Shown here: positions 515 to 62,200 of the stretch, piece by piece
How the letters are laid out: each line of letters opens with the position of its first letter
How positions within the stretch are numbered: position 1 is the stretch's first letter
Notes under the pieces: generated by a model
Seen by the model: the letters and a program-made list of their open reading frames with translations, nothing else
Databases searched by the model: none
What the model was told of the DNA's origin: nothing
Position numbers and translations under genes: made by a program
From: Tubiluchus corallicola
Taxonomy: Eukaryota > Animalia > Priapulida
Reading direction: 5' to 3'
DNA: 64,000 nucleotides
NCBI GenBank assembly: GCA_030141605.1
Contig: JAQGDQ010002379.1
Coordinates: forward strand, 310,001 to 374,000

Positions 515-33602
<33,088 letters not shown>

Positions 33603-36984: not shown

Positions 36985-38256
36985 TTATTCTTGTTTATTT
37001 AAACTTTAACTATATTTCTGTGTTACAATAAATGAACTCAAAACAGAAAATGCAATGCCTTATATGTTTAAAATTCCTGGCAAGAGCAAGGGGGTATTTT
37101 ACAGTACAATTCTAATGTTGTATATGATAGATATCATGAAGCAACATATTTTTATCATAATAGCTTATTGCCACACACACTAACATTTCTGGAAGTCAGT
37201 GATCAAAAGTTATATTACTGCATACCTAATTGCTCAGTTTAACAATATTAAATTATAAATCTACTCGTATTTTGCTTAATAAAAACTTTAATTTGCAAAC
37301 AATATGCAGCCAATAATATGCTAGAATCTGTTTTGTTTCTCGTGTCAAGTCAAACTCATGTACACAACCTTTTAAGATCACTCTCCACAGTAAGAACAGT
37401 GACACATGGGGACCTCGTGTTAAAATTAATGCTTTAGTATTTACAGTGAATTGCAGCTTTGTATTATGTATAACAAATAGATATCAGTTGTCAGAGTTTC
37501 ACAATGTAGTGAAATGAAAAAGTGAACTCATACAGTATCATGCTGAGTGCATTTGATGCTGCTCATTGTCTAATAATCAAAATACGAGAAAAAATTCACT
37601 AATAATTCTTGTTGCTGGTGTTGATCAAATGCACTAATCTTGTAATCTGATGTGACTTATCAAATGCACTTTCATTGTTTCTTTCATACACGTTCCTTAA
37701 TCATTGCCTTCTTTTTGGTTGTTAAATGTACGGTGTCATTTTGAGTAATTTATCTTACTTAGCTGTCCACATTGTTTTTCATTTGACAGGTAGTTTTGAT
37801 TTTTGTTAAGCGGCCATGCAATTTGTTTTTTTTACAGAAAAAGTGGCAATTTGTTAACATTCTACTTTATTTACTCTCATTTTATGTGTCTGTTTATGTG
37901 CGTAATGTATAGGTATTGTAAATTTTTTTCGTATTATGCTACTCTAATTTTTTTTCATTAAATTTCTATTTATGTGCAAGTTGCTGCAAATCTTTTAGGT
38001 GCTAATCGATGAAATAAAAGAAATGTTCACCTTCCATGCAAATAATTATATGTAAGTCTTAGTAAAATTAATAGTTGATCACTACAGCAATTTACCGTTA
38101 AAAATAATTAACAATGTTAATACTCAATTAAAAATTATTCGCAAATGAGCATAACCATTAACCAAGCCTAGCCCTAAGTGTCCAACGTGAGACTCGTCGT
38201 AAATATTCCGTCAATGTGTTACCAAGTGATTGGCTTTCCTGTTGAAGATATCCCGT
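36985..38256 (+). repeat. Start of tandem segmental-duplication unit 1 (diverged copy at 55526-56625)
   Basis: Colinear match from ttattcttgtttatttaaactttaac to gttgaagatatcccgt, with many substitutions and indels. Confidence 0.9.
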
Positions 38257-38284: not shown

Positions 38285-40380
38285 GTGCAGAAATTGCTGA
38301 AATTCTAAACAATATTTTAAAAACAGGCACATTTCCGCAGGATATTCATAAAGGAATACTTATCCCTTTACCCAAGCCAGGTAAGAAACGAGGTCCTATA
38401 TAAAATCTTAGACCATTGATGTTGCTTACACTACTATACTAAGGAAGATCTGTACCGTTACCGTCGAAGGATAGAGGTTAAGCATACATAGCTTATAAAC
38501 CTCTCCACTCTTCCTTGTTTACTTTGTCAATATTAAGAATACATAATGGGTGGCGACACTACGATCACGAAGCGAAGCATAGGGTTTCTTGTTGCCATTG
38601 TGGCAACCTGGGGTCTATATATTTTTCAGCATTGTTTTTCCAAAATCTATGGAGACGAGACTTAAACTGGGCAGGATTGGGTGCTTGTATTACATGGTCA
38701 GGCAGCTTGTTCCACTCATTAATTACTCGCCTTGCGAATGTGAATCTTCTTCTGTTCCACCTTTTGGGAACTGTTCTCTTCTTGATTTTGTAGGAGTGAC
38801 CTCTGGTACCATGATATGTCTGTCGGTGAAAAAATATTTCACTGTTGATGGTTTCTATGCCTTTAAGAATACGGAATGTTTGGATTAAATCTTGTCTTTT
38901 GCGTCTGTATTTCAGAGTTGTAAGGCCGAGAATCTTAAGTCTTGCAACATACGGTAAATGAGAAATGGCAGGTACAAGTCTAGTAGCTCGACGTTGTATA
39001 CTTTCAATTTTTCTTATCATGTCTTGACGATTTGGGCTCCAAATCACATCACCATAATCCAGAATAGGACGAACGATTGATTTATATAGTTTGGTCGCCA
39101 CTGTATGTTGACTAGGATCTATGACAGGTTACACACTTACATTCCAACAAGCCAAGCAGCATATCAACCAGGACGGAATACTACTGAATTAGTACAAGCC
39201 TGTAAATTACTAGCCGGAAAAGCCATCTCTTCTGCTGATTACTCAATACATATTCATGATCGATATGTCAAAGGCCTTTGATTGTGTGCGGAGAAAAACT
39301 CTGCTATGCTGCCTGGAAGAAATCCTTGAACCTGATGAAATATACATCATAAGTATAATGTTAGAAAATTTATTAATTCAAGTCAGGTGTGAAGGGAAAT
39401 TGAGTCAGCCGTTTTCTACAGACAAAGGAGTACCTCAGGGTGACTGCCTAAGCCCTGTACTTTTCACTTTATATCTTGCCATAGCTCTCACTGAGGACAA
39501 AGTTATACCATTGAAAGACCTAGAAGATCACAACTACACAATTCTTGATCCTGAATTAATACCGAATGAAGTAAGACAAGAATGCAGTTACAGTTCTCTA
39601 CAAAGTAAGTCAACTACTATATCTATGCAGTATGCTGATGATGTGGCATGGATTACAAGAAACAAAGAAGACGTAGATGAAATAAAAAACTCAATAGAGG
39701 AGAAACTGAACAGAATGGATCTCATTGTAAACAAAAATAAAACTGAAGAGTTTCACATAACACGCCATGGTGATGAATCATGGCAAAGATGCAAGTATCT
39801 CGGTAGTCTGCTGACAACAGAAGACGACATATCAAGACGGAAGATAATGGCATTATCAGTTTACTCAAAACTTAAAAAAATTTCTTTGGAAACAAAAATT
39901 AGAATATTCTCAGCCTTAGTTGAAACTGTATTTCTATATAACTCTGAGCTCTGGACATTAAAAGCAAATCATAAAGCTGAAATCGATGCGTTTCAAAGGC
40001 GAAATTACAAAAACATGTTGGGTATTAGATGGCCAAAGAAAATTTCAAACAAAGATCTATATGAAACAATAAAAGAAGAACCTTGGACAAGAAAAATAAA
40101 AAGACGCCGTTTAAGATGGATTGGGCATATGCTTAGACTACCTGATGATACTCCAGTGAAGATAGCTCTTCAACAAGCCATAGAACCAGCTAAAAAACCT
40201 GCAGGAGGACAAATGTTAACATATTTAGATTTTGCACAAAAAGATTTAAACACTTTAGCATTGATCCTTAGAAATAAATCTACTTGGGGCATTGCGGCGA
40301 GCAGGGAGTCCTGGCATAGGGAGGTGAACAGAATCATGTCACTGGATGTGTGATTCATTGGATCATGATGATGATGATGA
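38285..40380 (+). mobile_element. 5'-truncated RTE-group LINE, reverse-transcriptase region (ORF 39256-40353), interrupted by a CR1 fragment
   Basis: GILIPLPKPGK..NLRP, SQAAYQPGR, DMSKAFD, GVPQGDCLSP, YADD, KYLG, YNSELW, RLRWIGHMLR; (TGA)n tail; empty site gcgacatgacatagagg in the paralogous unit near 57526-57542. Confidence 0.92.
38455..39100 (-). mobile_element. CR1-clade LINE 3' fragment nested in the RTE-group LINE
   Basis: KLYKSIVRPILDYGDVIWSP..IESIQRRATRLVP..RLKILGLTTL..TRGHSYKI..RVINEWNKLP; short cggtaa-type tail; flanked by ctgta on both sides (38450-38454, 39101-39105). Confidence 0.92.
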
Positions 40381-43004: not shown

Positions 43005-43359
43005 TGTTGTGGAGATCGCTGACGTCAAGTAGAATTGCACAGAACGTCGTAGAATGTTCTGTCGGGATGACCGCTTTAGCGTCTGGATTGTTCTCGAACA
43101 TTTGTTCCAGAAGTTTCTGCAGTGCGCTATATAAGGCGAAGCAGGCTGCCGACAGGGGATCGCACGCAGATCTAACACGGACTTATACTTACGCATTTAT
43201 ACTTACTTAAACGTTTTCCAGATTTTCACGTTTATTGTAATCATTTCAACGTTCCTTCATCTTTTGTATAGTAGAATTCTCGCTAAATAAAGCAGTTTTA
43301 TTTGACGGCGTGTTTTCTGGTTTTCTCTACGAGCCTTTCGAGAGAAACTAAACACAACA
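43005..43359 (+). mobile_element. Solo LTR (355 bp)
   Basis: TGTTGTG...CACAACA termini; perfect 5-bp TSD ctaac (43000-43004, 43360-43364); TATATAA 43128; AATAAA 43286; single ctaac empty site in the paralog at 59153-59157. Confidence 0.9.
43020..43134 (+). promoter_or_regulatory. LTR promoter: CRE (TGACGTCA), heat-shock-element arrays and TATA box
   Basis: TGACGTCA 43020-43027; GAA at 43032/43042/43052 plus TTC 43057; TTCtcGAA 43091-43098; TTCcaGAAgtTTC 43105-43117; TATATAA 43128-43134. Confidence 0.65.
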
Positions 43360-43454: not shown

Positions 43455-46400
43455 ATGACAAGTTTAAATAAGGGATGCACGTTGCCTTTATATGTGGTGG
43501 ATGCTTTCACAAGCCAGGCATTTGCTGGAAATGCTACTGTTGTATGTCTAGTGTCACACAATCAGGTAAATTAATGATCTGTCATTAACAAACTTTTCGT
43601 CTTAATCTGTTGTCAGCTATTTTTATTGCACTGTTCTTCACTGCAAATAACTTGTGATCCTATAGCACAAAATCAAAGTCAATGTATGTGGCTTAATCGC
43701 ACTCTTATTTATGTAAAGATACGAGTTTTTAACTACTAACTGATAATGTTTCTTGTTATTTATTTATGCGATTAACTCAATTAATCTACTGTGTTACAAT
43801 AAATAAATCATTATATTATAATATTTAAATCACAGGCTTGCATAATAAAAATCACTGGTTTCCTTTTAGAAATATTGAAACAAATTTAACAAGTTAGATG
43901 AAAATAAAAGTGTCCATTTGGTCACAGCTGAAATCAATTTGTAATCAATTAAACTTATAACATCAGTCATAATAATGTCAGGATAATGGTGACTGTGCCT
44001 TTCAGTTATGTTTGTATTTGGATCTATTATAACAGTAGGTGTTTTTCATAAAGCGTTAGTATAATTTTAAGTGAGAATTACAATGAGTATCAATGCAGAA
44101 AATGCATTTTGTTGTTGTTGTTGTTTCCGTCTCTACTGAGGCTTTGTAGTTTCTTTTTGCAATTAGAATAGATATTCTGTGTATTATTTGAACTGTACAA
44201 AACAGCAGATATGTTATATGTTCAAAATGTATCCCAAACTGCCCAAAAGCTGTGTTGTTTTTATTAGTTGAATTGTGGTGTAATCTGCATTTCTTGGGTT
44301 ATATTATTAAATGGCTGTAGACATTGTGATGTATATAGTCCTTCGGTTATTCTATTTTAGGTAATCGACGATGCAAAAATGCAAAAAATTGCTTTCGAAA
44401 TGAACTTGCCGATAACCGGTTTCATTGCACTGCCAACAGAAAACGATTCGTTCAAGAATTCTTCCCGTTTTGGTCTACGATGGTTTACCCCTGCCTGCGA
44501 ATTCCAACTGTGCGGTCATTCCACTCTTGCTGCTGCCACGGTGCTTTTCTCTTGTGTTGGTAAATTTGCTAAGCAGGACAGAAATGTAAATCTAGAAGCT
44601 GAAGCTGAGTCAGTTGCTACTAAATCAGCTGAGTCACACAGTAAATCAGCTAGCTCGGCTGAAACTGAGTCAGTTGCTACTAAATCAGCTGACACTCACA
44701 GTAAATCAGCTAACTCGGCTGAAACTGAGTCAGTTGCTACTAAATCATCTGACACTCACATAGTAAATCAGCTAGCTCGGCTGAAGTAATTTTAATGTTG
44801 TAATTGTAATTTTAAACAAACAAGCATACAAAAACATACGTAAACTTGATAAAATCCTAAACAAAAAAATCTTTGCTTACGAATAGCCTAAATTGCTGCA
44901 GTTCAAGAATATGCCGGTACATGGTTTTTAAGAACGTGACAACTGACAACTGTGTGAGTGACAGTACTTTCTCTACCTTACTGCAGATGCTAGCAGTGCA
45001 GCACCATCATGTGCTCTGGTTCCGTACAAGTATAAAGAAAGAACTAAAGAAAAAAGACTTATTGTATTGAATATTATCGATAATATTGAGTGAAAATAGG
45101 GGGCGCTGCAGTTCTGATACTTATACACAACCGCCACTGTGCTGCATAAACACTAGGCCAAGTTGACCAAAACCTAAATTTTCCTAAGTGAACTTGGTTC
45201 AGGAATTGACACTTATGATTACTCCTTCAGTGGCTTACTTACTGGAGTTCACCATTACGAATGACAGATTGTGATTCTTATGTCCTGCAGCAACAATTTA
45301 GTGTTAGTTTGAATAGTTCTATTTGTGAACTGGTTTAAGTGATTCGACAGCACGCCCCTTTATATGCCATATATCTCTCATAATTTATGTACTCGCGATG
45401 TTAAAAAAATCTCCTGGCTTATAATCTGGCAACTCTAGCAATGGATTTATTGAAAATATAATTTAAATCCAACCCTTGGCAAGGCTTATCTGGATTACCA
45501 ACAAATCAATACTAAACACCAAAATGATCCCATACCTGTGGCTAATGTTGCCTATTTGTGCATTTTATTTAATTTTGAATTGACTGCTTTCTCATTCAAA
45601 AATTTCTGAAGTTTAGTATCTCTGCCAGCACACGTACAATATGACCGCATTGCAACCAGTGATTTCATCATCATCATAAGCCTGTTACATTATTTCTAGA
45701 CATTGGGCAGGCAAAATTCTAAAATAATAGAAATCTGTCCTCAAAACAGGTAAACACAGCAGTAATCTAACAAAAACTGGACACTGCTATGCCAGTGACT
45801 TTTTCGCAAGAGCAAAAATCATCACAGCCGGCAAAAATGTCAGCTACCTCGACTTCCGTCACCGAGCGGCTGGCACGACTAAAGCTGGGTTTCTTATCGG
45901 CTAGGTCGACTGTAGAAATAAACCGGCTGGAGCTGAGCTGAAGCGGTACGGCTCTGGCTTCTATGGCGATCCCATAAGTATTTTTCACGTTGTCTTGAAA
46001 ATCAGGGAGTTTTTATTTGCCAACCTAATACCAAACGAATTCACTGTGAATTTATTTGTGTGCTAATGTGTTTACTTCAAATAAGCTTCCATGCAGTTTT
46101 GCTTTTTTTTCTTCTATTGCTTGGAGATTGTGTGCCTTTTTTTGCATTTTAGGACTTAAAGCATTCCGCTGTTTTCAGTTCTCATCATATTTGGCATTTT
46201 CTTAGGAGACTGTCAGCTTTCCCTTCTTTTTATCTGCACTTTAAAAAATTGGAAAAGAAAAATAGTGCCTGTTAACCATATTCTAAACCATATTCTATTC
46301 AAATAATGAAATTACAATTAGGCATTGCAATATTTGATTGTATTGCTAATCCACTAATGCTACGATTAGGCTCTAAATATTTGTGAAATTGATAATCATT

Positions 46401-49400
46401 ATGATAGGCAGGTCTGAAATTAAAAGGCAGCTAGTGAATATATCTACAGCTATGTAAATTATTACAGGTAACGAATTTACAGAGATTACATTTGATACGC
46501 TGAGTGGACCACTTGTTGCCAGAAAAAAAGAGGACAATATGATTCTGCTTGATTTTCCTGCTAATCCAACTATTAGTGTTAACAAGGAAAATGTGAAAGA
46601 GCTTTTAAAGGTACCTACTCTTTTGAATGAGCTGTAAAACAAGTTTGCTTGGGTTTTTGTTGTAAGTAATTTTATCATTGAAGCTTTTAGCAGGTAGGTG
46701 GTTGACAGTTTGGAAGACATTCTGACACCTTGGTATATTTATGTATTTTAGGAAATTTCCAGGCTTACTCGTTTTAACTGTGTGTGCTGGCCATGTTTTT
46801 CAAATGTATCATATGGGCTGTTTTTTTGGTCAATAGCTAAATTGCAGCTTTGCACAGACTTTTTTGAAGGCATATTACTTAGTATTATCTTACTTGTATT
46901 ACTTAGTATTACGCTTTCTTGCCTGCAATACTCATGTAAATAGAAAAGACACATTTTCTAGCTTTATGTAAGTAAAGGGCTTTCTTGCCTGCAATACTCA
47001 TGTAAATAGAAAAGACACATTTTCTAGCTTTATGTAAGTAAAGGGCTTTCTTGCCTGCAATACTCATGTAAATAGAAAAGACACATTTTCTAGCTTTATG
47101 TAAGTAAAGGGCTTTCTTGCCTGCAATACTCTTGTAAATAGAAAAGACACATTTTCTAGCTTTATGTAAGTAAAGGGCTTTCTTGCCTGCAATACTCATG
47201 TAAATAGAAAAGACACATTTTCTAGCTTTATGTAAGTAAAGGGCTTTCTTGCCTTTTATGACAATTTTTTGGTGTTTTAATTAACCCTATTCAGTTTTTG
47301 AATTTACCTGAAGAGGGGGACAGCATGAGAGGAGCATGGAAATTATTCAAAGGTGGGACGGGGTGGGGTGGTTACAGTAATGGTGGCAGTGAAGCGCTTG
47401 CTGTTACTTTATTGTTTCTTTTTACTGGCTGTTACACACCCGTGCATGCATGCACACGCACGCACACACCCACACACACACACTGTTACATAATATAGTA
47501 AAGTATATCATATCACTCTTTTCGGTGATTCTAGATTGCATAGCACTCCTACAATAGGACTAGTTGAAGTTTAGCAAACAACTATCACAATTACTAACCT
47601 GACATTCTGTGCATTAAATTTAGAAATCCACAGATTAAAGATACGAGACAATGCCGCTATGATAAAACTAAGGGTGCATTCAGACTAGCGAGTTTTCTGT
47701 TGGGAGTTTTTCTCTAACACCAAACTTGCAAGTGTGAACTGCTTTGCGAGTTACTATCGACAAGTCATTGCACACTTTCAGACAGTTGCTACGAAATGAT
47801 TTCCTGTTTAGTGTGAACAGTCTCAGCGAGTTACTCTTGACACTGCTCCCAGTGAATAGAGGAGGAGTATCAGCTGGTGTTTACTTCATGCTGGAGAATT
47901 TTGTTCTTTAGTCTGAACGTGCTTGCGAGTTACTTGGCGAGAAAATTTGCTAGTATGAATGCTTCATTACTCTCAAAAGCAGTGCGACAAAATATCAACA
48001 TTCTTGCAACAGTCAAGTCATCTAAATTCTTCTTTGTAAAAAGTATTTTGGTCCAAACTTTAATACACTGTAGAATCTTACGTGAATGTTTTTTATAATA
48101 CAGGTACTTGTTGGAGATTTACCTATTGTTGATGTGGAGTATGCTCCTGTTATACAACAAATGATTGTGTGTCTTCAAGATTCTGTGTCCAGGTGTGCAT
48201 GTTGATAATTTTTTATTTGGTTTGTCGTGTGTCATTCGTTTTGCACTTTTCATTTGCTTTCATGTTATTATACATACTATAAAATTGCTGCAAATTGCAC
48301 AAATCTGCAATTAATCTCTATTTCTATGAAGTGTGTTTGTGTATGTTTGTTTATTTGTTTGCTATAAAGTCCTGTTTTATTTATTTAACTTAAAATTTGG
48401 TCTATTAAGTTGCTAATACATCACACTCCCCATTGAATTATGGGATATGTACAGTTATGTGCAGAAATCAATTAACAAAAGCTGAAGTCAGTCTACTTTT
48501 TAACTTTTGGCAGGAGTTCTACTTACATGAAAAAGAATTTAAAATACACTATGTTTCAGTCCATTGTTGGGTTCATTCTCTCATTGTCTCATTTTTCATT
48601 CATTAGTCATTGATGTTATTATTGTTGTAAGTATAAGGCTTCATGTGTGTGTGTGTGTTTTACCTTCAGGCAAGGACTACTATACAACAGGACGTGCACA
48701 GTCAGATCTCTGATTCCGCCAGCGGAGGCGATCAATACTTGTAATGAACGTAATCTAGAAATAGTGCGCTTTAGAGAGTAGTGATCTTGGAAATTAAAGA
48801 ATGGACGGATCGGTAGATAGCGAGTATTATTTTTCATTTAATTGGTTCTTTACATTACGGGAGAAAAGTTCCAATTGTTTATTTTATGTATCAAAGGAAA
48901 TTAGTGTTCATTTTTACTTCTTAAATAGCGCACTACTTTAGGCGTAAGTGTGTTTTACCGGAAGTAGTGCTTTGTCATTGTTAATGTGTCATTGTTCAAA
49001 GTCAAGTGAAGCGTTGTTTTCGTGCTTGTGTTTGTTTCTTTTGGGATTATTTTCAAAATTTCTCGTGGATTTTATACATCTGTGCTCAGCAGCATGCCTA
49101 ACAAGGTAACTATGACACGGAGAACAAGTGTCGTGTGTTCAGACTGCCAAGAGATCATGTAGAAAAACAGAAATGGCTAAGTGTTCTTCCCCCACGCGAA
49201 GGCTTTGTTGTTGATCCATCGAAATTTTTCATTTGCGAAAAGCATTGGCCATCGGATACTCAAATAGTCAAAATTCCAGGTGGTCACACCAGCCAGTGGA
49301 TCCACCCAGTATTTTCAACGTTCCAACATCATGCTTGCCCACTCCAAAGCCACCACCTCGCCCTCCAAAAACTGAGGACCAGCAGCTGAATTATTTCTTT

Positions 49401-52400
49401 AAAAAGGATAAAATAACTTATCTCAATGAATTCACTCCTGAGAAAGACCTGCATAAGACGTATCAGAACCTCATTATATCTCGCGCACAAGACAAATTTG
49501 TGTGCATGTTCATGGAAGAGGACCACAGTCAATGTTATATGTCAATTATTGTTCACAATAAGCCTACCTTGTGTTCCCCTCTTACTCTGTATGCTTTCAA
49601 AAACGGGATCAGTGTGCCATTAATTAAAATCCTCAGTCCGAACAATGGACTGTCCTCTTACTCACAATTTTTCGCGGTTGTGAATTCTGTTGTCAACCAC
49701 ATTCATCATGTTGATGATATTGTCAACAAAGTGACAAAGTCTCTTGAACTTGAACTAGCTCAAAATCGAGAACAATCTCCTAGTGTTAATGCTAAAGCCA
49801 AGAAGCTCAAATTTCTAACACGACAGCTTCGACTATTATGTGATAAGACTTTCACAGTGTCTGATTATTGCTTTGCAATAGAGTCATTTCCCCATTGCAA
49901 TTACGAACAACTGCGTGACTTTTTAGTGTTACCCAGCAAAAGAAAGCTGCAGTCAGTTATTTCATCGACAGATATTGACAAGGTGCTAGGTAAAACATTT
50001 CAGAAAGTAAAAAGCTCTGAGCAGAAACACTGTATGCTATTGGTGGATGAAGTGAAAATATGCCCAACAGTGGCTTAAGGTCCCATGTTGCTTAATTTTG
50101 CAGCTAAGGACACTGTGAGCAACAAGCTAATCCTGTCATTCGTGATAAAACAATAAAGAGACATTTATTTTCAGGGAGATCTTGGAAGCAAGGGCACCGG
50201 ATATTTTTGCTCTTCCTGCAGCTAACACATCCCTGATGAAACTGTACGGTGTCCACTTGACGGTTAAAGCTCCAGCCAACTCCGGCTATGACTTTTATTC
50301 CCGCAGTTTTTTTCCCTGGATTGGAACGTCTGAAGATCCAGTTTGTGGTAAACAATTTGCATTGTTTATGTAAGAATGAATGAATATACTATTGATATAT
50401 ATGAATTAATTATAATTATCTTTGCTTTAAAGTAAAGCTAAACAAAAGAAATTATGTTTATTATTCTTGATGTGCACCATTTTGCTGCGTCTGTGTTTGC
50501 CAGTAAGTGGCGTACTCTACTGGCGTTGTTTTGTAACTTTTCTTTCTCTTTTGAAATGCAGCACAACTAGGGTTGTGGTTTATACAGTAAAATAATTAAT
50601 ATTGGAACATACGATAATTTGAGGCTTCATGCCATACAAAAGAGGTAGCTATACGAAGATTGTTAATTAGTTAGTTAGCTATATAAGCTAGTCAGTTAGT
50701 CAATCAGTTAGTTTTGGCAAGTTTTCAGTATGGCATGTTGGGTTGGACAGCTGGGTGTTCTTGGCACTCTTGGCGGCTTTACATTCTTGGAGGCTTGGCG
50801 ATGGGGTGGAAGACAGAGGCAAGATTTGGAGTGGAAAACAGGTAGAGTGTCGGCAGTGGGACTGATGTAGGAAGATAGTAGGGTGTGAAGAGAACCACCT
50901 AAACTGCAAGAGTGCCCAAATCAATACCAAAACACTAAAATGATCCCATGCGTGTGTCTAACATTGCCTATTTTTGTGTTTAATTTTGAATTGACTGCTT
51001 TCTCATTAAAAAATTTTTCAAAGATAGTATCTCTGCCAGCACACGCACACAGTATGACCACGAATCCGTAGTGCATTCGCCAAATTTCACCCAGTGATTT
51101 CGTCATCATCACAAGCCTGTTATGTCAATTGTAGACATTGGGTAGGCAGAACTCTAAAATAAAAGAAATCTGCCCTCAAGACAGGTAAACACAGCAGTAA
51201 CCTAGCAAAAAACTAGACACTGCTTTGGCAGTGGCTTGTTCGCAAGAGCTAAAATCTTCGCAGCCGGCAAAAATGTCGGCTGGCTCCACTCATCTCTGAG
51301 TGGCTGGTGCGACTAAAGCTGGGTTTCTTATCGGCTAGGTCGACTGTAGAAGTGAATTGCCTGGAGTTCAGCTGAAACGACATGGCTCATGCCTCTAGTT
51401 TTAAGATGAAGATTAGTTTTAGTTTTGTTCTGTGTTAGTCTTGCATTTTCTGTCTTAAGTCTGACTGAAAATCACTATGTCACTGAAGGAGTTGCCAGTT
51501 TTATGGTTTTTCTGTTGAGGTGGTTTCTAACTTTGCAGTTTTTATGAGAATAATGAAATTTTGGCCACAAAATATTCTATCCAGTACAGAAGGACTTATG
51601 TGGTAATAGTTCCAGTGAATAAAGTATACATTGTAGGCCTGATTTTCAAAAACATGAAATGTTTTTTTTTCAAAAACATGAAAAGCCTATCTTAATTCAT
51701 TATATTTGCATGTTTAAAGTTTGCAATGTTTGATGCCAGTAATCTCCAACTAATTTCTGACTATGTTAGGGTCGGCTCACACTATATTTGGTTGTTACTG
51801 GCAAAAAGTGCTGGGAAAATCAACTTTTCAAGGTAGGATAATTTGCTGTTTTATGACGTTTGTTATAATTTAACTTATGATGCTTATTCGTTTATGATCT
51901 GATTTTGTATGTTTTTCAGTATGTCAGTAGATCTCAATTTAAATTCTGTGCAAGATTATTACCATGCTGACAAAGAGCGACATAGGTTTGATTTACTTAA
52001 TGTCGTACAGCACACTGTAATTTAATGTGTGTAAAGTCCTCGAAAGGTTAAAAAATGAAAATTTCCAGCCATTGTAAATAACTGCGTCTTAGTTTACATA
52101 ATTTTTCACAAAAAATTACAGAATGCTATAAAATATAATTGTTATTTTGAACAATATATATTTTTAGTGGCCAGTCACAAAGTATAATTACTGCCCTGCA
52201 ATACCATATCACATAGACTTGTGCAGCATATGTTACCGGAACAGTATCTTGCTTAACCCTTTTACCGCCTCCATGATGTACTATTATGTCTATTTTTTGT
52301 ATTGGCTTATGCCTATTTGATGTACATATTTATCATTAGTATCTAGCGCTCCATTTAAACTCTGGCGAAGTGTATTATCGCTTAGTTTAGTACGTTTAGA

Positions 52401-53424
52401 CAGCTAGCAGGGCCCAGCACAGCTCCAGGAATATGTGTAAACTGAGTTTGACCTTATTTCCTTGGCTACATAGCACATCTGCTACGTACATATATGTCTT
52501 CGACTGTGAATTCTGCATCATTTGAAATTTGCTGTTTTTGCACATTTTTATTATTATTAATAATAATCTTTTGTTCGTATAAAATTTTTTATACAGCAAT
52601 GTAGTTTTAGTATAAATAATTAATACAATGAAAAATAATTTTTGTTAGTAATTAAAAAACAAGAGATTTAGAGATTTTAAGACAATTTTCAGCAAAAAGC
52701 TTAAAGATTTGATAGTTTTGGAGGTTTTAATGCATATGCACACTCTCCCACTTATTTTAGAGATGATGGACCTATATATATATATATATATATATATATG
52801 TTCTAAACATTCTTGATAGATATATAAAAATGATCTGTAAAGGGATTATTATTCTTGTACACAATTCTACGTGATTTTAAGGCTTTTGGTTTTTGCATGT
52901 ATTTTACTTTTGATAAATGTATACCAAAACAAATATATTTTTAATTGTGACTTGCACAAGTTGATTTTCGGGCTGAATTTAGGGGCTGAAGCTGTTTTAC
53001 TTGCATGACACTATAATTTTGCTTTGGAGGTTCATTTATTGATCTAAATTCAGTTTCATGTGCAGTTTCATATCACCATATTGCCTCATTTGCAAATAAA
53101 TATAAAACTTAAACAAGTAAGTAAATATATAGGCCTAACAAATTTTCGTGAATGAATGTAATGATTGATTGATTGAATGAATGAATGAATAGGTGGGTGC
53201 ATGATTGATTTTTATTTGGCTTGTTGAAATCATATCTTTTTTTCTTATGAACAATATCAAAATAAAGTTGCAAAGTTGTTATTTTGTCATGTGCTTTGTG
53301 CGTTTTTGTAGCTCGTCAGTGCTCAAAAAGAGGAGGAGATGTCTACGTGAATGTACGAGAAGACAAGAGAGTCGAGATTGGAGGCAAGTCTGTAGTCGTT
53401 ATAGAAGGAAAGATCTATTTATAG
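43455..53424 (+). CDS. PBLD: PhzF/phenazine biosynthesis-like domain protein (PBLD/MAWBP family), copy 1; 7 coding exons, 296 aa, intact frame, non-canonical active site
   Basis: Exons 43455-43565, 44361-44559, 46468-46610, 48104-48192, 50175-50347, 51770-51832 and 53312-53424 total 891 nt. Motifs: VDAFT..AFAGN, LRWFTP..E.QLCGH.TLAAA, TLSGPL, LDFP, YDFYSR.F.PW.G..EDPVCGSAH, ARQCSKRGG, V.IGG. Confidence 0.93.
44593..45963. mobile_element. hAT-like composite MITE in PBLD copy 1 intron 2 (orthologous shorter version at 60392-61187)
   Basis: tagaagctgaagc ... gctctggcttcta imperfect TIR; flanks tgtaaatc versus tggcgatc (tgtcgatc in copy 2) resemble an 8-bp TSD. Confidence 0.5.
44598..44785. repeat. 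Three tandem ~60-bp units containing TGAGTCA
   Basis: gctgaaactgagtcagttgctactaaatcagctgacactcacagtaaatcagctagctcg x3; single unit in copy 2. Confidence 0.9.
46913..47254. repeat. 66-bp minisatellite, 5 near-identical copies
   Basis: gctttcttgcctgcaatactcatgtaaatagaaaagacacattttctagctttatgtaagtaaagg x5; one copy at ~62139-62216. Confidence 0.95.
47672..47966. mobile_element. PIF/Harbinger-like MITE (second copy at 62643-62937)
   Basis: taa|gggtgcattcagactagcgagttttct ... agaaaatttgctagtatgaatgcttca|tta imperfect TIR with TAA/TTA flanks. Confidence 0.6.
48671..50078 (+). mobile_element. 3'-truncated P-element/THAP9-type DNA transposon in PBLD copy 1 intron 4
   Basis: Begins caaggactactata exactly where homology with copy 2 ends. 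Degenerate THAP domain (VFRLP..KWL..FICEKHW..PPSIF) followed by the transposase N-terminus LRDFLVLPSKRKL..CMLLVDEVKI; frameshifted, no right TIR. Confidence 0.8.
50918..51398. repeat. Dispersed ~480-bp repeat, also at ~45503-45963 and ~60724-61187
   Basis: Colinear match aaatcaatac..aaaatgatccc ... gactaaagctgggtttcttatcggctaggtcgactgtagaa. Confidence 0.85.
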
Positions 53425-55525: not shown

Positions 55526-56625
55526 TTATTCTTGTTTATTTAAACTTTAACTATGTTTCTGTGTTACAATAAATGAACTCAAAGCAGAAAATGCAGTTCC
55601 TTATATGTTTAAATTCCTGGCAAGAATAAGGGGGCATTTTATAGTACAATTCTAATGTTGTATATGTTAGATATCATGAAGCAATATAAATTTATCAGAA
55701 TAGCTCATTGCCACACTTAAGATTTCTGGAAGTCAGTGATCAAAAGTTATATTACTGCATATTTTATTTAATAAAAACTTTAATTTGGAAACAATATGCA
55801 GCCAATAATATGTTAGAATCTTGCTTGTTTCTTTTGTCACATCAAACTCGCATGTACACAATCTCTAAGAACACTTAAATTGTTGCATGAGGTCTGTCTC
55901 AACAGTAAGAACAGCTACGTGTGAGAGTTTTCTATACAATAGCTTACAATAACTGTACGATAAAATGATTTACTATTACCAGTTGACAGAGTACCAAAAT
56001 GTGTAGAAATGAAGAAGTGAACTCATAAGATATCATACTAAGTGCAGGTGATGCTACTCATTGTATAATAAATAAAAATTGGAAAAAGTCAAAAAGTTGA
56101 TAAATCTTGTTGCTGTCTCAGTTGATGTGACTTATCAAATGCACTTTCACTGTTTCCTTCATGCACTTTACTTAATCACAGCCTCTTTTTGTTGTTAGCT
56201 GATGTTATTTTGCGTAATTTGTTGTGATTTTTGTTATAAAGTTATGCAATTTGTTTTGTTTTTTTACAGAAGAAGTGGTAGTTTGTTAACATTCTACTTT
56301 ATTTAATCTCATTTTAGGTGTCAGTTTATGTGCGTAATACATATTTATGGTAAAGTTTTTTCGTGTTAGGCTGCTTTAAAAAAATTTCTTATTGACAAAT
56401 AAGAGAAATGCTCACCTACTATGCAAGCAATTATTTAAGTCTTGCTAAAATTAATAAATGATCATGGCAGCAATTTATCGTTAAAAAAATTAACATTGTT
56501 AATACTAAATTACTAGCAAAATGAGCTTAACCAAGCCTAGCCCTAGGTGTCTGATATGAGAGTCGTCGTAAATACGCTGTCAACGCGTTGCCAAACGATC
56601 GGTTTTCCTGTTGAAGATATCCCGT
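55526..56625 (+). repeat. Start of tandem segmental-duplication unit 2
   Basis: Matches 36985-38256. Confidence 0.9.
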
Positions 56626-59247: not shown

Positions 59248-62200
59248 ATGACAAGTTTAAATAAGGGATGCACTTTGCCTTTATATGTGGTGGATGCTTT
59301 CACAAGCCAGGCATTTGCTGGAAATGCTGCTGCTGTATGTCTAGTGTCACACAATCAGGTAAATTAATGATGATCTGTCATTAACAAACTTTTCGTCTTA
59401 ATTTGTTTTCAGCTATTTTTATTGCACTGTTCTTCACTGCAAATAACTTGTGGTCCTGTAGCACAAACTCAGTCAATGTATGTGTCTTAATCGCACTCTT
59501 ATTTATGTAAAGATATGAGTTTTTAACTACTAACTGATAATGTTTTTGTTATTTATTTATGTGATTAACTCAATGAATTAACTGTGTTACAATAAATAAA
59601 TCATTATATTATAATATTTAAATCGCAGGCTTGCATAATAAAAATCACTGGTTTATTTTTAGAAATATTGAAACAAATTTAACAAGTTAGTTGAAAACAA
59701 AAGTGTCCATTTAGTCACAGCTGAAATCAATTTGTAATCAATTAAACTTATAACATCAGTCATAATAATGTCAGGATAATGGTGACTGTGCCTTTAAGTT
59801 ATGTTTGTATTTGGATCTATTATAATAGTAGGTGTTTTTCATGAAGATTTAGTATAATTTTAAGTGACAATTACAATGAGTATCAATGCAGAAAATGCAT
59901 TTTGTTGTTGTTGTTGTTGTTGTTTCCGTTTCTACGGAGGCTTTGTAGTTTCTTTCTGCAATTCGAATAGATATTCTGAGTATTATTTGAACTGTACAAA
60001 ACAGGAGATATGTTATATGTTCAAAATCTATTCCAAACAGTCCGAAGGCTGTGTTGTTTTTATTAGTTGAATTGTGGTGTAATCTGCATTTCTTGGGTTA
60101 TATTATTAAATGGCTGTAGACATTGTGATGTATATAGTCATTCGGTTATTCTATTTTAGGTAATCGACGATGCAAAAATGCAAAAAATTGCTTTCGAAAT
60201 GAACTTGTCGGAAACCTGTTTCATTGCACTGCCAACAGAAAACGATTCGTTCAAGAATTCTTCCCGGTTTGGCCTGCGATGGTTTACCCCTGCCTGTGAA
60301 ATCCAACTGTGTGGTCATGCCACTCTTGCTGCTGCCACGGTGCTTTTCTCTTGTGTTGGTAAGTTTGCTAAGCAGGACAGAAATGTAAATCTAGAAGCTG
60401 AACCTGAGTCAGTGCTACTACATCAGCTGACACTCACAGTAAATCAGCCAGCTGGAGTTCACCATTAAGAATGACAGATTTTGATTCTTATGTCCTGCAG
60501 CAACAATTTAGCGTTAGTTTGAATAGTTTTATTTGTGAACTGGCTTAAGTGATTCGACAGCACACCCCTTTATATGCCATATATCTCTCTATATCTCTCA
60601 TATTTTATGTACTCACAATGTTAAAAAAAATCTCCTGGCTTATAATCTGGCAACTCTAGCAATGGATTTATTGCAAATATAATTTAAATCCAACCCTTGG
60701 CAAGGCTTATCTGGATTACCAACAAATCAATACTAAAATACCAAAATGATCCAATACGTGTGGCTAATGTTGCCTATTTGTGCATTTTATTTAATTTTGA
60801 ATTGACTGCTTTCTCATTCAAATATTTCTGAAGTTTAGTATCTCTGCCAGCACACGTACAATATGACCGCATTGCGACCAGTGATTTCATCATCATCATA
60901 AGCCCGTTATGTCAATTGTAGACATTGGGCAGGCAGAACTCTAAAATAAAAGAAATCTGCCCTCAAAACAGGTAAACACAGCAGTAATCTAGCAAAAAAA
61001 CTGGACACTGCTATGCCAGTGACTTGTTCGCAAGAGCAAAAATCTTCACAGCTGGCAAAAATGTCAGCTACCTCGACTTCCGTCACCGAGCGGCTGGCAC
61101 GACTAAAGCTGGGTTTCTTATCTGCTAGGTCGCCTGTAGAAATAAACCGACTGGAGCTGAGCTGAAGCGGTATGGCTCTGGCTTCTATGTCGATCCCTTA
61201 AGTATTTTTCACGTTGTCTTGAAAATCAGGGAGTTTTTATTTGCCAACCTAATACCAAACGAATTCACTGTGAATTTATTTGTGTGCTAATGCGTTTACT
61301 TCAAATAAGCTTCCATGCAGTTTTGCTTTTTTTCTTCTATTGTTTTTTTAGATTGTGTGCCTTTTTTGCATTTTAGGACTTAAAGCATTCCGCTGTTTTC
61401 AGTTCTCATCATATTTGGCATTTTCTTAGGAGACTGTCAGCTTTCCCTTCTTTTCATCTGCACTTTAAAAAATTGGAAAAGGAAAATAGTGCCTGTTAAC
61501 CATATTCTAAACCATATTCTATTCCAATAATGAAATTACAATTAGGCATTGCAATATTTGATTGTATTGCTAATCCACTAATGCTACGATTAGGCTCTAA
61601 ATATTTGTGAAATTGATAATCATTATGATAGGGGGGTCTGAAATTAAAAGGCAGCTAGTGAATATATCTACAGCTATGTAAATTATTACAGGTAACGAAT
61701 TTACAGAGATTACATTTGATACGCTAAGTGGACCACTTGTTGCCAGAAAAAAAGAGGACAATTTTATTCTGCTAGATTTTCCTGCTAATCCAACTATTAG
61801 TGTTAACAAGGAAAATGTTAAAGATCTTTTAAAGGTACCTACTGTTTTGAATGACCTGTAAAACAAGTTTGCCTGGGTTTTTGTTGTAAGTAATTTTATC
61901 ATTGAAGCTTTTAGCAGGTAGGTGGTTGACAGTTTGGAAGACATTCTGACGCCTTGGTATATTTATGTATTTTAGGAAATTTCCGGCGTTACTTGTTTTA
62001 ACTGTGTGTGCTGGCCATGTTTTTCAAATGTATCATATGGGCTGTTTTTTTTTGGCCAATAGCTAAATTGCATCTTTGCACAGACTTTTTTGAAGGCATA
62101 TTACTTAGTATTATCTTACTTGTATTACTTAGTATTACGCTTTCTTGCCTGCAATACTCATGTAAATAGAAAAGACACATTTTCTAGCTTTATGTAAGTA

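What the first reader, a model, noticed from the sequence alone, without database searches (positions are those of the whole stretch)
43455..44559. PBLD paralog with an intact ORF but a rewritten active site (catalytic Glu lost)
Seen: the two copies are nearly identical, including introns, yet exons 1-2 differ at 7 residues, all in family motifs. These are GNAAAV>GNATVV, NLSETCF>NLPITGF (GAA>ATA, two base changes) and EIQLCGHAT>EFQLCGHST. I count 6 synonymous changes in the same exons; exon 3 differs at 2 residues and exon 4 is identical. Copy 1 keeps all 7 exons, its splice sites and a 296-aa frame. Known: the Glu of the SET motif is the catalytic acid/base of PhzF (E45), and the physiological substrate of animal PBLD is not well established. 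Inference: clustering at the pocket rather than random decay suggests neofunctionalisation, either a new substrate or a ligand-binding pseudoenzyme that may use the Cys pair of LCGH and EDPVCGS as in the related DAP-epimerase fold.
Basis: partly seen in the sequence, partly recalled or inferred. Interest (0 to 1): 0.75.

Follow-up and report, generated by a model that had tools for sequence, protein, structure and literature searches.

The report
Duplicated enzyme with rebuilt active site
One of this invertebrate's duplicate PBLD genes keeps an intact reading frame but has swapped residues at motifs predicted to form both halves of its active site, including the family's catalytic glutamate, so it likely binds or converts a different small molecule than its sister copies, although no RNA shows that it is expressed.

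Summary
Copy 1 is a 296-aa, 7-exon frame; it differs from copy 2 by 7 residues and 6 silent changes in exons 1-2, by 2 residues in exon 3 and by none in exon 4. Position 55 maps to PhzF E45. Seven of the 9 changes fall on conserved columns (P 0.001-0.005; 0.035 if clusters count as single events).

New here: public runs show at least three paralogous forms, and 7 more copy-1-derived changes in exon 5, four of them in the second active-site loop (C225S, N230I, V232T, P233S). These four also occur in a second sample, and a sister paralog changed three of the same codons differently. Cys88, His90, Asp235, Cys238 and Ser240 stay. The Cys pair is shared by all exon-5 forms, so it is no innovation of copy 1, and the Glu may not be the catalyst in this subfamily.

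Against: overall dN/dS is not above 1, there is no divergence peak, no RNA is available, E55I was not seen in any contig, and 6 of 244 homologs also lack this Glu.

Verdict: likely selected pocket remodelling (0.5); a new variant of a known kind.

The parts
43455..43565 (+). PBLD copy 1, coding exon 1; A28T (43536-43538) and A29V (43539-43541), just after the conserved Asn26
   Evidence: Thr28 in 0 of 104 and 1 of 119 homologs
44361..44559 (+). Copy 1, coding exon 2; S54P, E55I, C57G (44409-44420), I85F (44502-44504), A91S (44520-44522); Cys88 and His90 kept
   Evidence: PF02567; E45 register; a 209x contig of X1 lacks the copy-2 letters at 44468-44520
46468..46610 (+). Copy 1, coding exon 3; differs from copy 2 at 128 and 148, both variable columns
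48104..48192 (+). Copy 1, coding exon 4; identical to copy 2
50175..50347 (+). Copy 1, coding exon 5; derived Q201L, H205Y, D216N, C225S, N230I, V232T, P233S; Glu234, Asp235 and Cys238 kept
   Evidence: PF02567; D208/S213 register
51770..51832 (+). Copy 1, coding exon 6 (Ser240, His242)
   Evidence: one contig of run X6 (RNA by guess, a relative about 90% alike) holds exon 6 and exon 7 side by side (record 30)
53312..53424 (+). Copy 1, coding exon 7 with stop codon
59248..63163 (+). PBLD copy 2, coding exons 1-4 with family-type motifs; the rest lies beyond the window
43005..43359 (.). 355-nt solo-LTR-like insertion (TG...CA ends, 5-nt target duplication) 95 nt before the ATG of copy 1, absent from copy 2
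   Evidence: very high depth in this bin
48671..50108 (+). High-copy transposon-like remnant in intron 4 of copy 1 (287-codon open stretch 49215-50078); right end approximate
   Evidence: no Pfam hit
36985..38256 (+). Upstream flank of copy 1, homologous to 55526-56625 upstream of copy 2; likely the start of the duplicated unit and perhaps the promoter
   Evidence: 75-92% in blocks; promoter role is inference

Best explanation
Copy 1 is an intact member of a small PBLD (PhzF-like) gene family whose likely active-site pocket was likely remodelled by selection, so that it would bind, and perhaps isomerise with its retained cysteine pair, a different small molecule than its sister copies. Shown: the intact frame, the substitutions, their place in the family's motifs, at least three paralogous forms, and the exon-5 changes in a second sample. 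Inferred, step 1: an older duplication whose 5' halves were later homogenised by gene conversion (gene body 95-98% alike, flanks 75-92%, exon-5 forms 12-31% apart at silent sites). Inferred, step 2: the ancestral enzyme here carries two Cys at the positions recalled for the acid/base pair of the DapF fold, so Glu55 may hold the substrate or a water rather than catalyse. Inferred, step 3: copy 1 replaced the residues around the core (equivalents of PhzF S44, E45 and Y203, and neighbours) and kept N26, C88, H90, D235, C238 and S240, which would make a less charged pocket. Of the 0.5, about 0.3 goes to a new-substrate enzyme and 0.2 to a selected non-catalytic ligand binder.
For: All 7 exon-1/2 residues are absent from about 105 homologs and seen in 0-2 of 119-142 more, while the two exon-3 changes sit on variable columns. 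Replacement changes: 8 of 123 N sites on conserved columns against 3 of 294 on variable ones, P 0.003. Exon 5 was not part of the finding: it has 8 replacement against 1-2 silent changes on the copy-1 line, versus 6 against 10 between form C and the outgroup (P 0.051). Seven of 16 changes lie within 3 residues of PhzF site residues named in PMC5524880 (27 of 237 codons, P 0.0006), and 3 hit such residues directly. Form B changed codons 230, 232 and 233 by other substitutions (P 0.005), which a single multi-base mutation does not explain. A second sample and study (X4) carries all seven exon-5 residues. Chance of an intact frame and splice sites under neutrality is 0.02-0.10. [quoted passage not shown]
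Against: dN/dS over exons 1-4 is about 0.35, and the 11 replacement changes do not exceed a neutral one-lineage expectation (P 0.11). Counting clusters as single events, significance falls to P 0.035 and 0.02-0.12. Exon 5 taken alone gives P 0.05-0.15. The McDonald-Kreitman-type table is not significant (P 0.13), and exon 2 is no divergence peak (P 0.27-0.55). If conversion made the introns look young, the neutral baseline is higher and the pocket rate may be merely neutral. X4 shows only copy-2 letters in exons 1-2, and E55I appears in no contig. A solo LTR and a transposon remnant sit in copy 1's introns. The window sizes were chosen after seeing the data, and the homolog sets were picked by score to copy 2's exon 2, which inflates conservation there.
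Confidence: 0.5

Rival explanations
1. Copy 1 is a redundant duplicate early in decay. Its changes are neutral, several arose together as multi-base mutations, and the frame has not yet been hit.
For: Overall replacement rate fits neutrality on one lineage (P 0.11). Four changes lie within 10 nt and two within 5 nt. No divergence peak. Insertions in two introns. Multi-base mutations are reported to mimic positive selection (bioRxiv 10.1101/165969, search listing and start of abstract only).
Against: Neutral decay predicts about 2 of 9 changes to be family-unseen residues on conserved columns; 7 were seen (P 0.0009; 4 of 6 events P 0.035). An intact frame is unlikely (0.02-0.10). Form B changed the same loop independently. 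The exon-5 residues are shared by a second sample.
Confidence: 0.25
2. Copy 1 is a pseudoenzyme kept for a non-catalytic job (scaffold, or partner of the active copy in a dimer). The fold is under purifying selection and the unused pocket drifts.
For: Outside conserved columns, exons 1-4 differ at only 3 of 294 N sites. [quoted passage not shown] DapF/PhzF-fold proteins are homodimers (PMC13728532, passage). Older divergence hidden by conversion would make the pocket rate neutral.
Against: C88, H90, E234, D235, C238 and S240 are all kept. Against the intron baseline the conserved-column rate is above neutral (P 0.002-0.005; 0.09 against silent sites). A28T, C57G and A91S are small-residue swaps rather than destructive ones (inference).
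Confidence: 0.2
3. Copies 1 and 2 are two haplotypes of one gene placed in tandem by the assembler, or the motif changes are assembly errors.
For: Copy 1 and copy 2 differ by about 3.5%, as much as copy-1-like forms differ from each other in exon 5. E55I is seen in no contig. Copy 2's exon 5 lies outside the window, so it cannot be assigned to a form.
Against: No N in the window. One sample holds four exon-5 forms, at depths of about 78, 91, 198 and 163 (sum 506), which fits three loci with copy 1 heterozygous. The copy-1-type path in exon 2 stands at 209x and a copy-1-exact intron contig at 184x, each two or more haploid doses. Flanks are only 75-92% alike. Depth from contigs is a rough guide only.
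Confidence: 0.05

Closest known systems
Animal PBLD / MAWBP (PF02567)
   Same: Same family and length; 42-45% identity to vertebrate and other animal members over about 285 residues; CGH and EDP motifs kept.
   Different: Copy 1 lacks the Glu that 238 of 244 homologs keep and has family-unseen residues at 57, 91, 225, 230 and 232. All forms here have Cys at 238, where most homologs have Thr (94 of 106).
Pseudomonas PhzF (PDB 1U1V, 1T6K, 5IWE; PMC5524880)
   Same: Same fold and register: H74, D208 and S213 equivalents kept (the H74 match is inferred from the motif).
   Different: The E45 proton shuttle is Ile. The two residues whose carbonyls hold the catalytic water in PhzF (S44, Y203) are both replaced. 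PhzF-type isomerisation of DHHA is not expected in either copy.
Two-Cys PLP-independent racemases and epimerases (DapF, proline racemase; plant DAAR1/DAAR2 within the PhzC/PhzF family)
   Same: Shared fold (stand-in model, Z 20-23). Cys in both central-helix motifs, as in 13 clean rows of 180 homologs and in PDB 1S7J. DAAR2 is listed as a PhzC/PhzF protein (PMC7215989, passage); DAAR1 is tied to D-allo-isoleucine (bioRxiv 2022.12.07.519424, passages).
   Different: No activity is shown for either copy. That the DAAR proteins use both Cys is recalled, not checked. The residue-level match of C88/C238 to DapF C75/C219 was not computed.
Duplicates diverging at selected sites under gene conversion (primate red/green opsins; PMC3924837)
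   Same: Tandem copies, introns more alike than functional exons, differences at functional residues.
   Different: The defining peak of divergence is not significant here, and function is untested.

Membership tests
PhzC/PhzF-like family (PF02567), PBLD | Pfam PF02567 match above the curated cut-off | tested here: met
   Exon 2: 63.2 bits; exon 5: 32 bits; cut-off 27
PhzC/PhzF-like family (PF02567), PBLD | Two-domain DAP-epimerase-like fold | tested here: inconclusive
   Only a 44%-identical homolog (P0005) was folded: pLDDT 93.5; best match 1S7J, Z 34.7, rmsd 1.6, 260 aligned. Copy 1 itself was not folded.
Active PhzF isomerase | Catalytic Glu45 | tested here: not met
   Ile55. Copy 2 scores wild-type PhzF above the E45Q chain (25.4 against 24.0 bits), copy 1 scores both 18.2 (E45Q named).
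Active PhzF isomerase | His74, Asp208, Ser213 | tested here: met
   H90, D235, S240. Profile position 236 pairs with PhzF 220, which puts D at 208 and S at 213 if the stretch has no gap.
Two-Cys racemase/epimerase (DapF-like) | Cys at the start of both central helices | tested here: met
   C88 and C238; in the stand-in model the helices begin just after the two motifs (H91-104, H245-259)
Two-Cys racemase/epimerase (DapF-like) | Measured racemase or epimerase activity | not testable with these tools
   Needs purified protein
Pseudoenzyme | Expressed, folded protein without catalytic activity | not testable with these tools
   No RNA holder listed; no assay
Neofunctionalised duplicate under gene conversion | Peak of divergence around the selected sites | tested here: not met
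   Shuffle test P 0.27-0.55 for three window sizes
Neofunctionalised duplicate under gene conversion | Excess of replacement changes at functional sites on one lineage | tested here: inconclusive
   P 0.0001-0.005 per codon; 0.02-0.12 per mutation cluster
Pseudogene | Stop, frameshift or broken splice site | tested here: not met
   891-nt frame, 6 of 6 introns GT-AG

The most novel reading that the evidence does not exclude
This animal lineage has a small PBLD family whose two-cysteine pocket is under repeated diversifying selection: copy 1 is a Glu-free racemase or isomerase for a new small molecule, and form B is a second, independent respecification of the same loop. Comparing the forms would expose the unknown substrate class of animal PBLD.
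Probability: 0.3. Interest if true: 0.7.

Novelty: new variant of a known kind. Interest (0 to 1): 0.5.

Why it matters
Animal PBLD is studied almost only as a signalling and tumour-suppressor protein (30 of 94 papers listed; titles and abstract starts seen), and I found no paper that gives it a substrate. Paralogs about 95% alike in exons 1-4 that differ mainly at the pocket are a ready-made experiment: a ligand or activity screen of copy 1 against the ancestral-type form could name the natural substrate class and test whether Cys-pair chemistry works without the PhzF glutamate. If copy 1 is merely decaying, it is an ordinary young duplicate.

Tried and rejected
Expression: no RNA holder listed; this is no evidence either way. 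Run X6 (RNA by guess, about 90% alike) gave pieces of exons 3, 6 and 7 only.

Whole genome: none is held for this window, and the genome index gave no answer, so copy 2's exons 5-7, the place of the third form and a full-length outgroup stay unknown.

Close relatives: a protein search with exon 5 found none (0 of 14 candidates). A search with copy 1's exon 2 gave 1 hit of 55 candidates. The best exon-2 relative is 75% identical.

Divergence island around exon 2: not significant.

A third copy inside the window: tblastn shows only two. The match at 29851-30325 is a repeat in calcineurin intron DNA.

A micro-inversion or hairpin repair as the source of the four changes at 44409-44418: checked by eye, does not fit, because both arms changed.

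Earlier notes: nothing near this place, by words or by sequence.

Literature: no listed paper describes a Glu-less PBLD paralog (25 of 381 listed; 15 of 15) or (0 hits). The library lacks most subscription papers.

Rows dropped before counts: 13 of the 120 listed hits outside 230-360 aa; 8 of 150 representatives over 360 aa; 2 of 15 two-Cys rows are misaligned fragments. One variant row and 547 rows were not shown by the tool.

Full report
Observation. The window holds two tandem PBLD (PF02567) genes downstream of a calcineurin A gene (exon translations; the name is from my own knowledge of the motifs). Copy 1 has seven coding exons, six GT-AG introns and a 296-aa frame; copy 2 is cut after exon 4. 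A contig of a related RNA-like run holds exon 6 beside exon 7, which supports that splice. Other agents' unchecked notes call the organism a likely priapulid; I did not test this.

Is position 55 the PhzF glutamate? Copy 2's exon 2 scores wild-type PhzF higher than the E45Q chain (25.4 against 24.0 bits); copy 1's exon 2 scores both alike (18.2). So position 55 is E45. PMC5524880 (parts 1-2 of 6 and passages read) names E45 as proton shuttle, models H74, D208 and S213 in the site, and says the backbone carbonyls of S44 and Y203 hold the catalytic water. By profile register (assuming no gap) D235 is D208, S240 is S213 and residue 230 is Y203.

Is the clustering more than chance? Each of the seven residues is absent from about 105 homologs and occurs in 0-2 of 119-142 further ones. 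Seven of 9 changes fall on conserved columns (P 0.004; 0.0005-0.005; 0.045-0.096 at the strictest cut-offs). A simulation of nine random replacement mutations reaches 7 such hits with P 0.0009. If neighbouring changes are single events, 4 of 6 has P 0.035. Both homolog sets were chosen by similarity to copy 2's exon 2, which inflates conservation there but not in exon 1. The overall rate is unremarkable: 11 changes at 417 replacement sites, 9 at 123 silent sites, 3.4% in introns.

Real paralogs? The window has no gap. In runs X1 and X2, one sample that may be the source of the assembly, exon 5 appears in four forms: copy 1 exactly (74-78x), a near form D (91x), form B (198x) and form C (120-163x), 506x in all. 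This fits three loci with copy 1 heterozygous, though contig depth is rough. In exon 2 a 209x contig lacks the copy-2 letters at 44468-44520, beside a 234x contig that has them. All 28 rows I checked in exon 1 to exon 2 match copy 2 (28 of the 40 rows shown). No contig shows E55I or the exon-1 changes. These assemblies drop minority paths, so E55I rests on the window alone. The second sample X4 also shows only copy-2 letters in exons 1-2.

New evidence from exon 5. Against forms B, C, E and the outgroup run X5 (about 86% alike, one contig at depth 3.8), copy 1 has seven derived residues: Q201L, H205Y, D216N, C225S, N230I, V232T and P233S (H205 by B and the outgroup; C and E have Asp). That is 8 replacement against 1-2 silent nucleotides. 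Four lie in the loop just before the EDP motif, the second half of the site. All seven are also in form D and in a copy-1-like contig of X4, a different sample and study. Form B changed codons 230, 232 and 233 to other residues by other substitutions (P 0.005). Variants in this stretch lie under 31 nt apart, so they are phased within a contig; the 5' end of exon 5 is mosaic among forms. No form changes Cys238, His208 or Phe227, so these are lineage features. Which form is copy 2 is unknown. Over 237 codons, 7 of 16 changes lie within three residues of the PhzF site residues (P 0.0006) and three hit them directly; per mutation cluster P is 0.02-0.12, and exon 5 alone gives 0.05-0.15 (windows chosen after seeing the data).

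History (inferred). The gene bodies are 95-98% alike from the ATG to intron 4, the flanks 75-92%, and the exon-5 forms 12-31% apart at silent sites. This suggests an older duplication with later gene conversion. PMC3924837 (passages) describes a peak of divergence at selected sites in such pairs; here the peak is not significant (P 0.27-0.55). Using intron indel rates, a neutral gene with 16-19 replacement changes would stay intact with probability 0.02-0.10.

Mechanism. Copy 1 keeps N26, C88, H90, E234, D235, C238 and S240 and replaces their neighbours. DapF uses two cysteines at the N-termini of its central helices as the acid/base pair (PMC13728532, passages), and a folded homolog matches PhzF and DapF structures. 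Both cysteines occur in 13 clean rows of 180 homologs, among them plant proteins. Plant DAAR2 is listed in this family and DAAR1 is tied to D-allo-isoleucine (passages); their use of two cysteines is recalled. I therefore think it most likely (0.5) that selection remodelled the pocket around a kept core, giving a new substrate (0.3) or a new ligand without catalysis (0.2). Rivals are early decay (0.25), a scaffold pseudoenzyme with a drifting pocket (0.2; human PBLD binds IKK, PMC8166876 passages) and an assembly artefact (0.05). No three-dimensional mapping of the changed side chains was possible.

Novelty. Loss of this Glu is rare but not unique: 6 of 244 homologs. Neofunctionalised duplicates and pseudoenzymes are known kinds. 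My searches listed no description of such a PBLD paralog. No supplements were read. It is a new variant of a known kind, of moderate interest, mainly as a handle on the unknown substrate of animal PBLD.

Noticed in passing
window 43005-43359: Solo-LTR-like element with TG...CA ends, TATA and AATAAA motifs and a 5-nt target duplication, inserted 95 nt before copy 1's ATG; it could alter or supply a promoter.
   Followed up: partly
window 48671-50108: High-copy transposon-like remnant in intron 4 of copy 1 with a 287-codon open stretch; it looks THAP/P-element-like from memory but has no Pfam hit.
   Followed up: partly
window about 300-33950: Calcineurin A (PP2B catalytic subunit) gene on the + strand directly upstream; its 3' region may overlap the start of the duplicated unit at 36985.
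   Followed up: no
window 38565-40350: Two LINE-type reverse-transcriptase remnants on opposite strands (RVT_1 hit at 39214-40350) between the putative promoter and the first coding exon of copy 1.
   Followed up: partly
window 43533-43535 and 59326-59328: Both copies have Ala27 where 101 of 104 homologs have Pro, so copy 2 also departs from the family next to Asn26.
   Followed up: no
window 50320-50331 (form B in runs X1 and X2): A further paralog carries its own changes N230D, V232L and P233L in the second active-site loop; its place in the genome is unknown.
   Followed up: partly
window 46913-47254: A 66-nt unit is repeated about five times in intron 3 of copy 1 and present once in copy 2.
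   Followed up: no
proteins P0039, P0170, P0179, P0181, P0194, P0267: Other family members lack the Glu (Asp, Asn, Ala or Thr); P0181 also alters the EDP motif. Glu loss recurs in the family.
   Followed up: no
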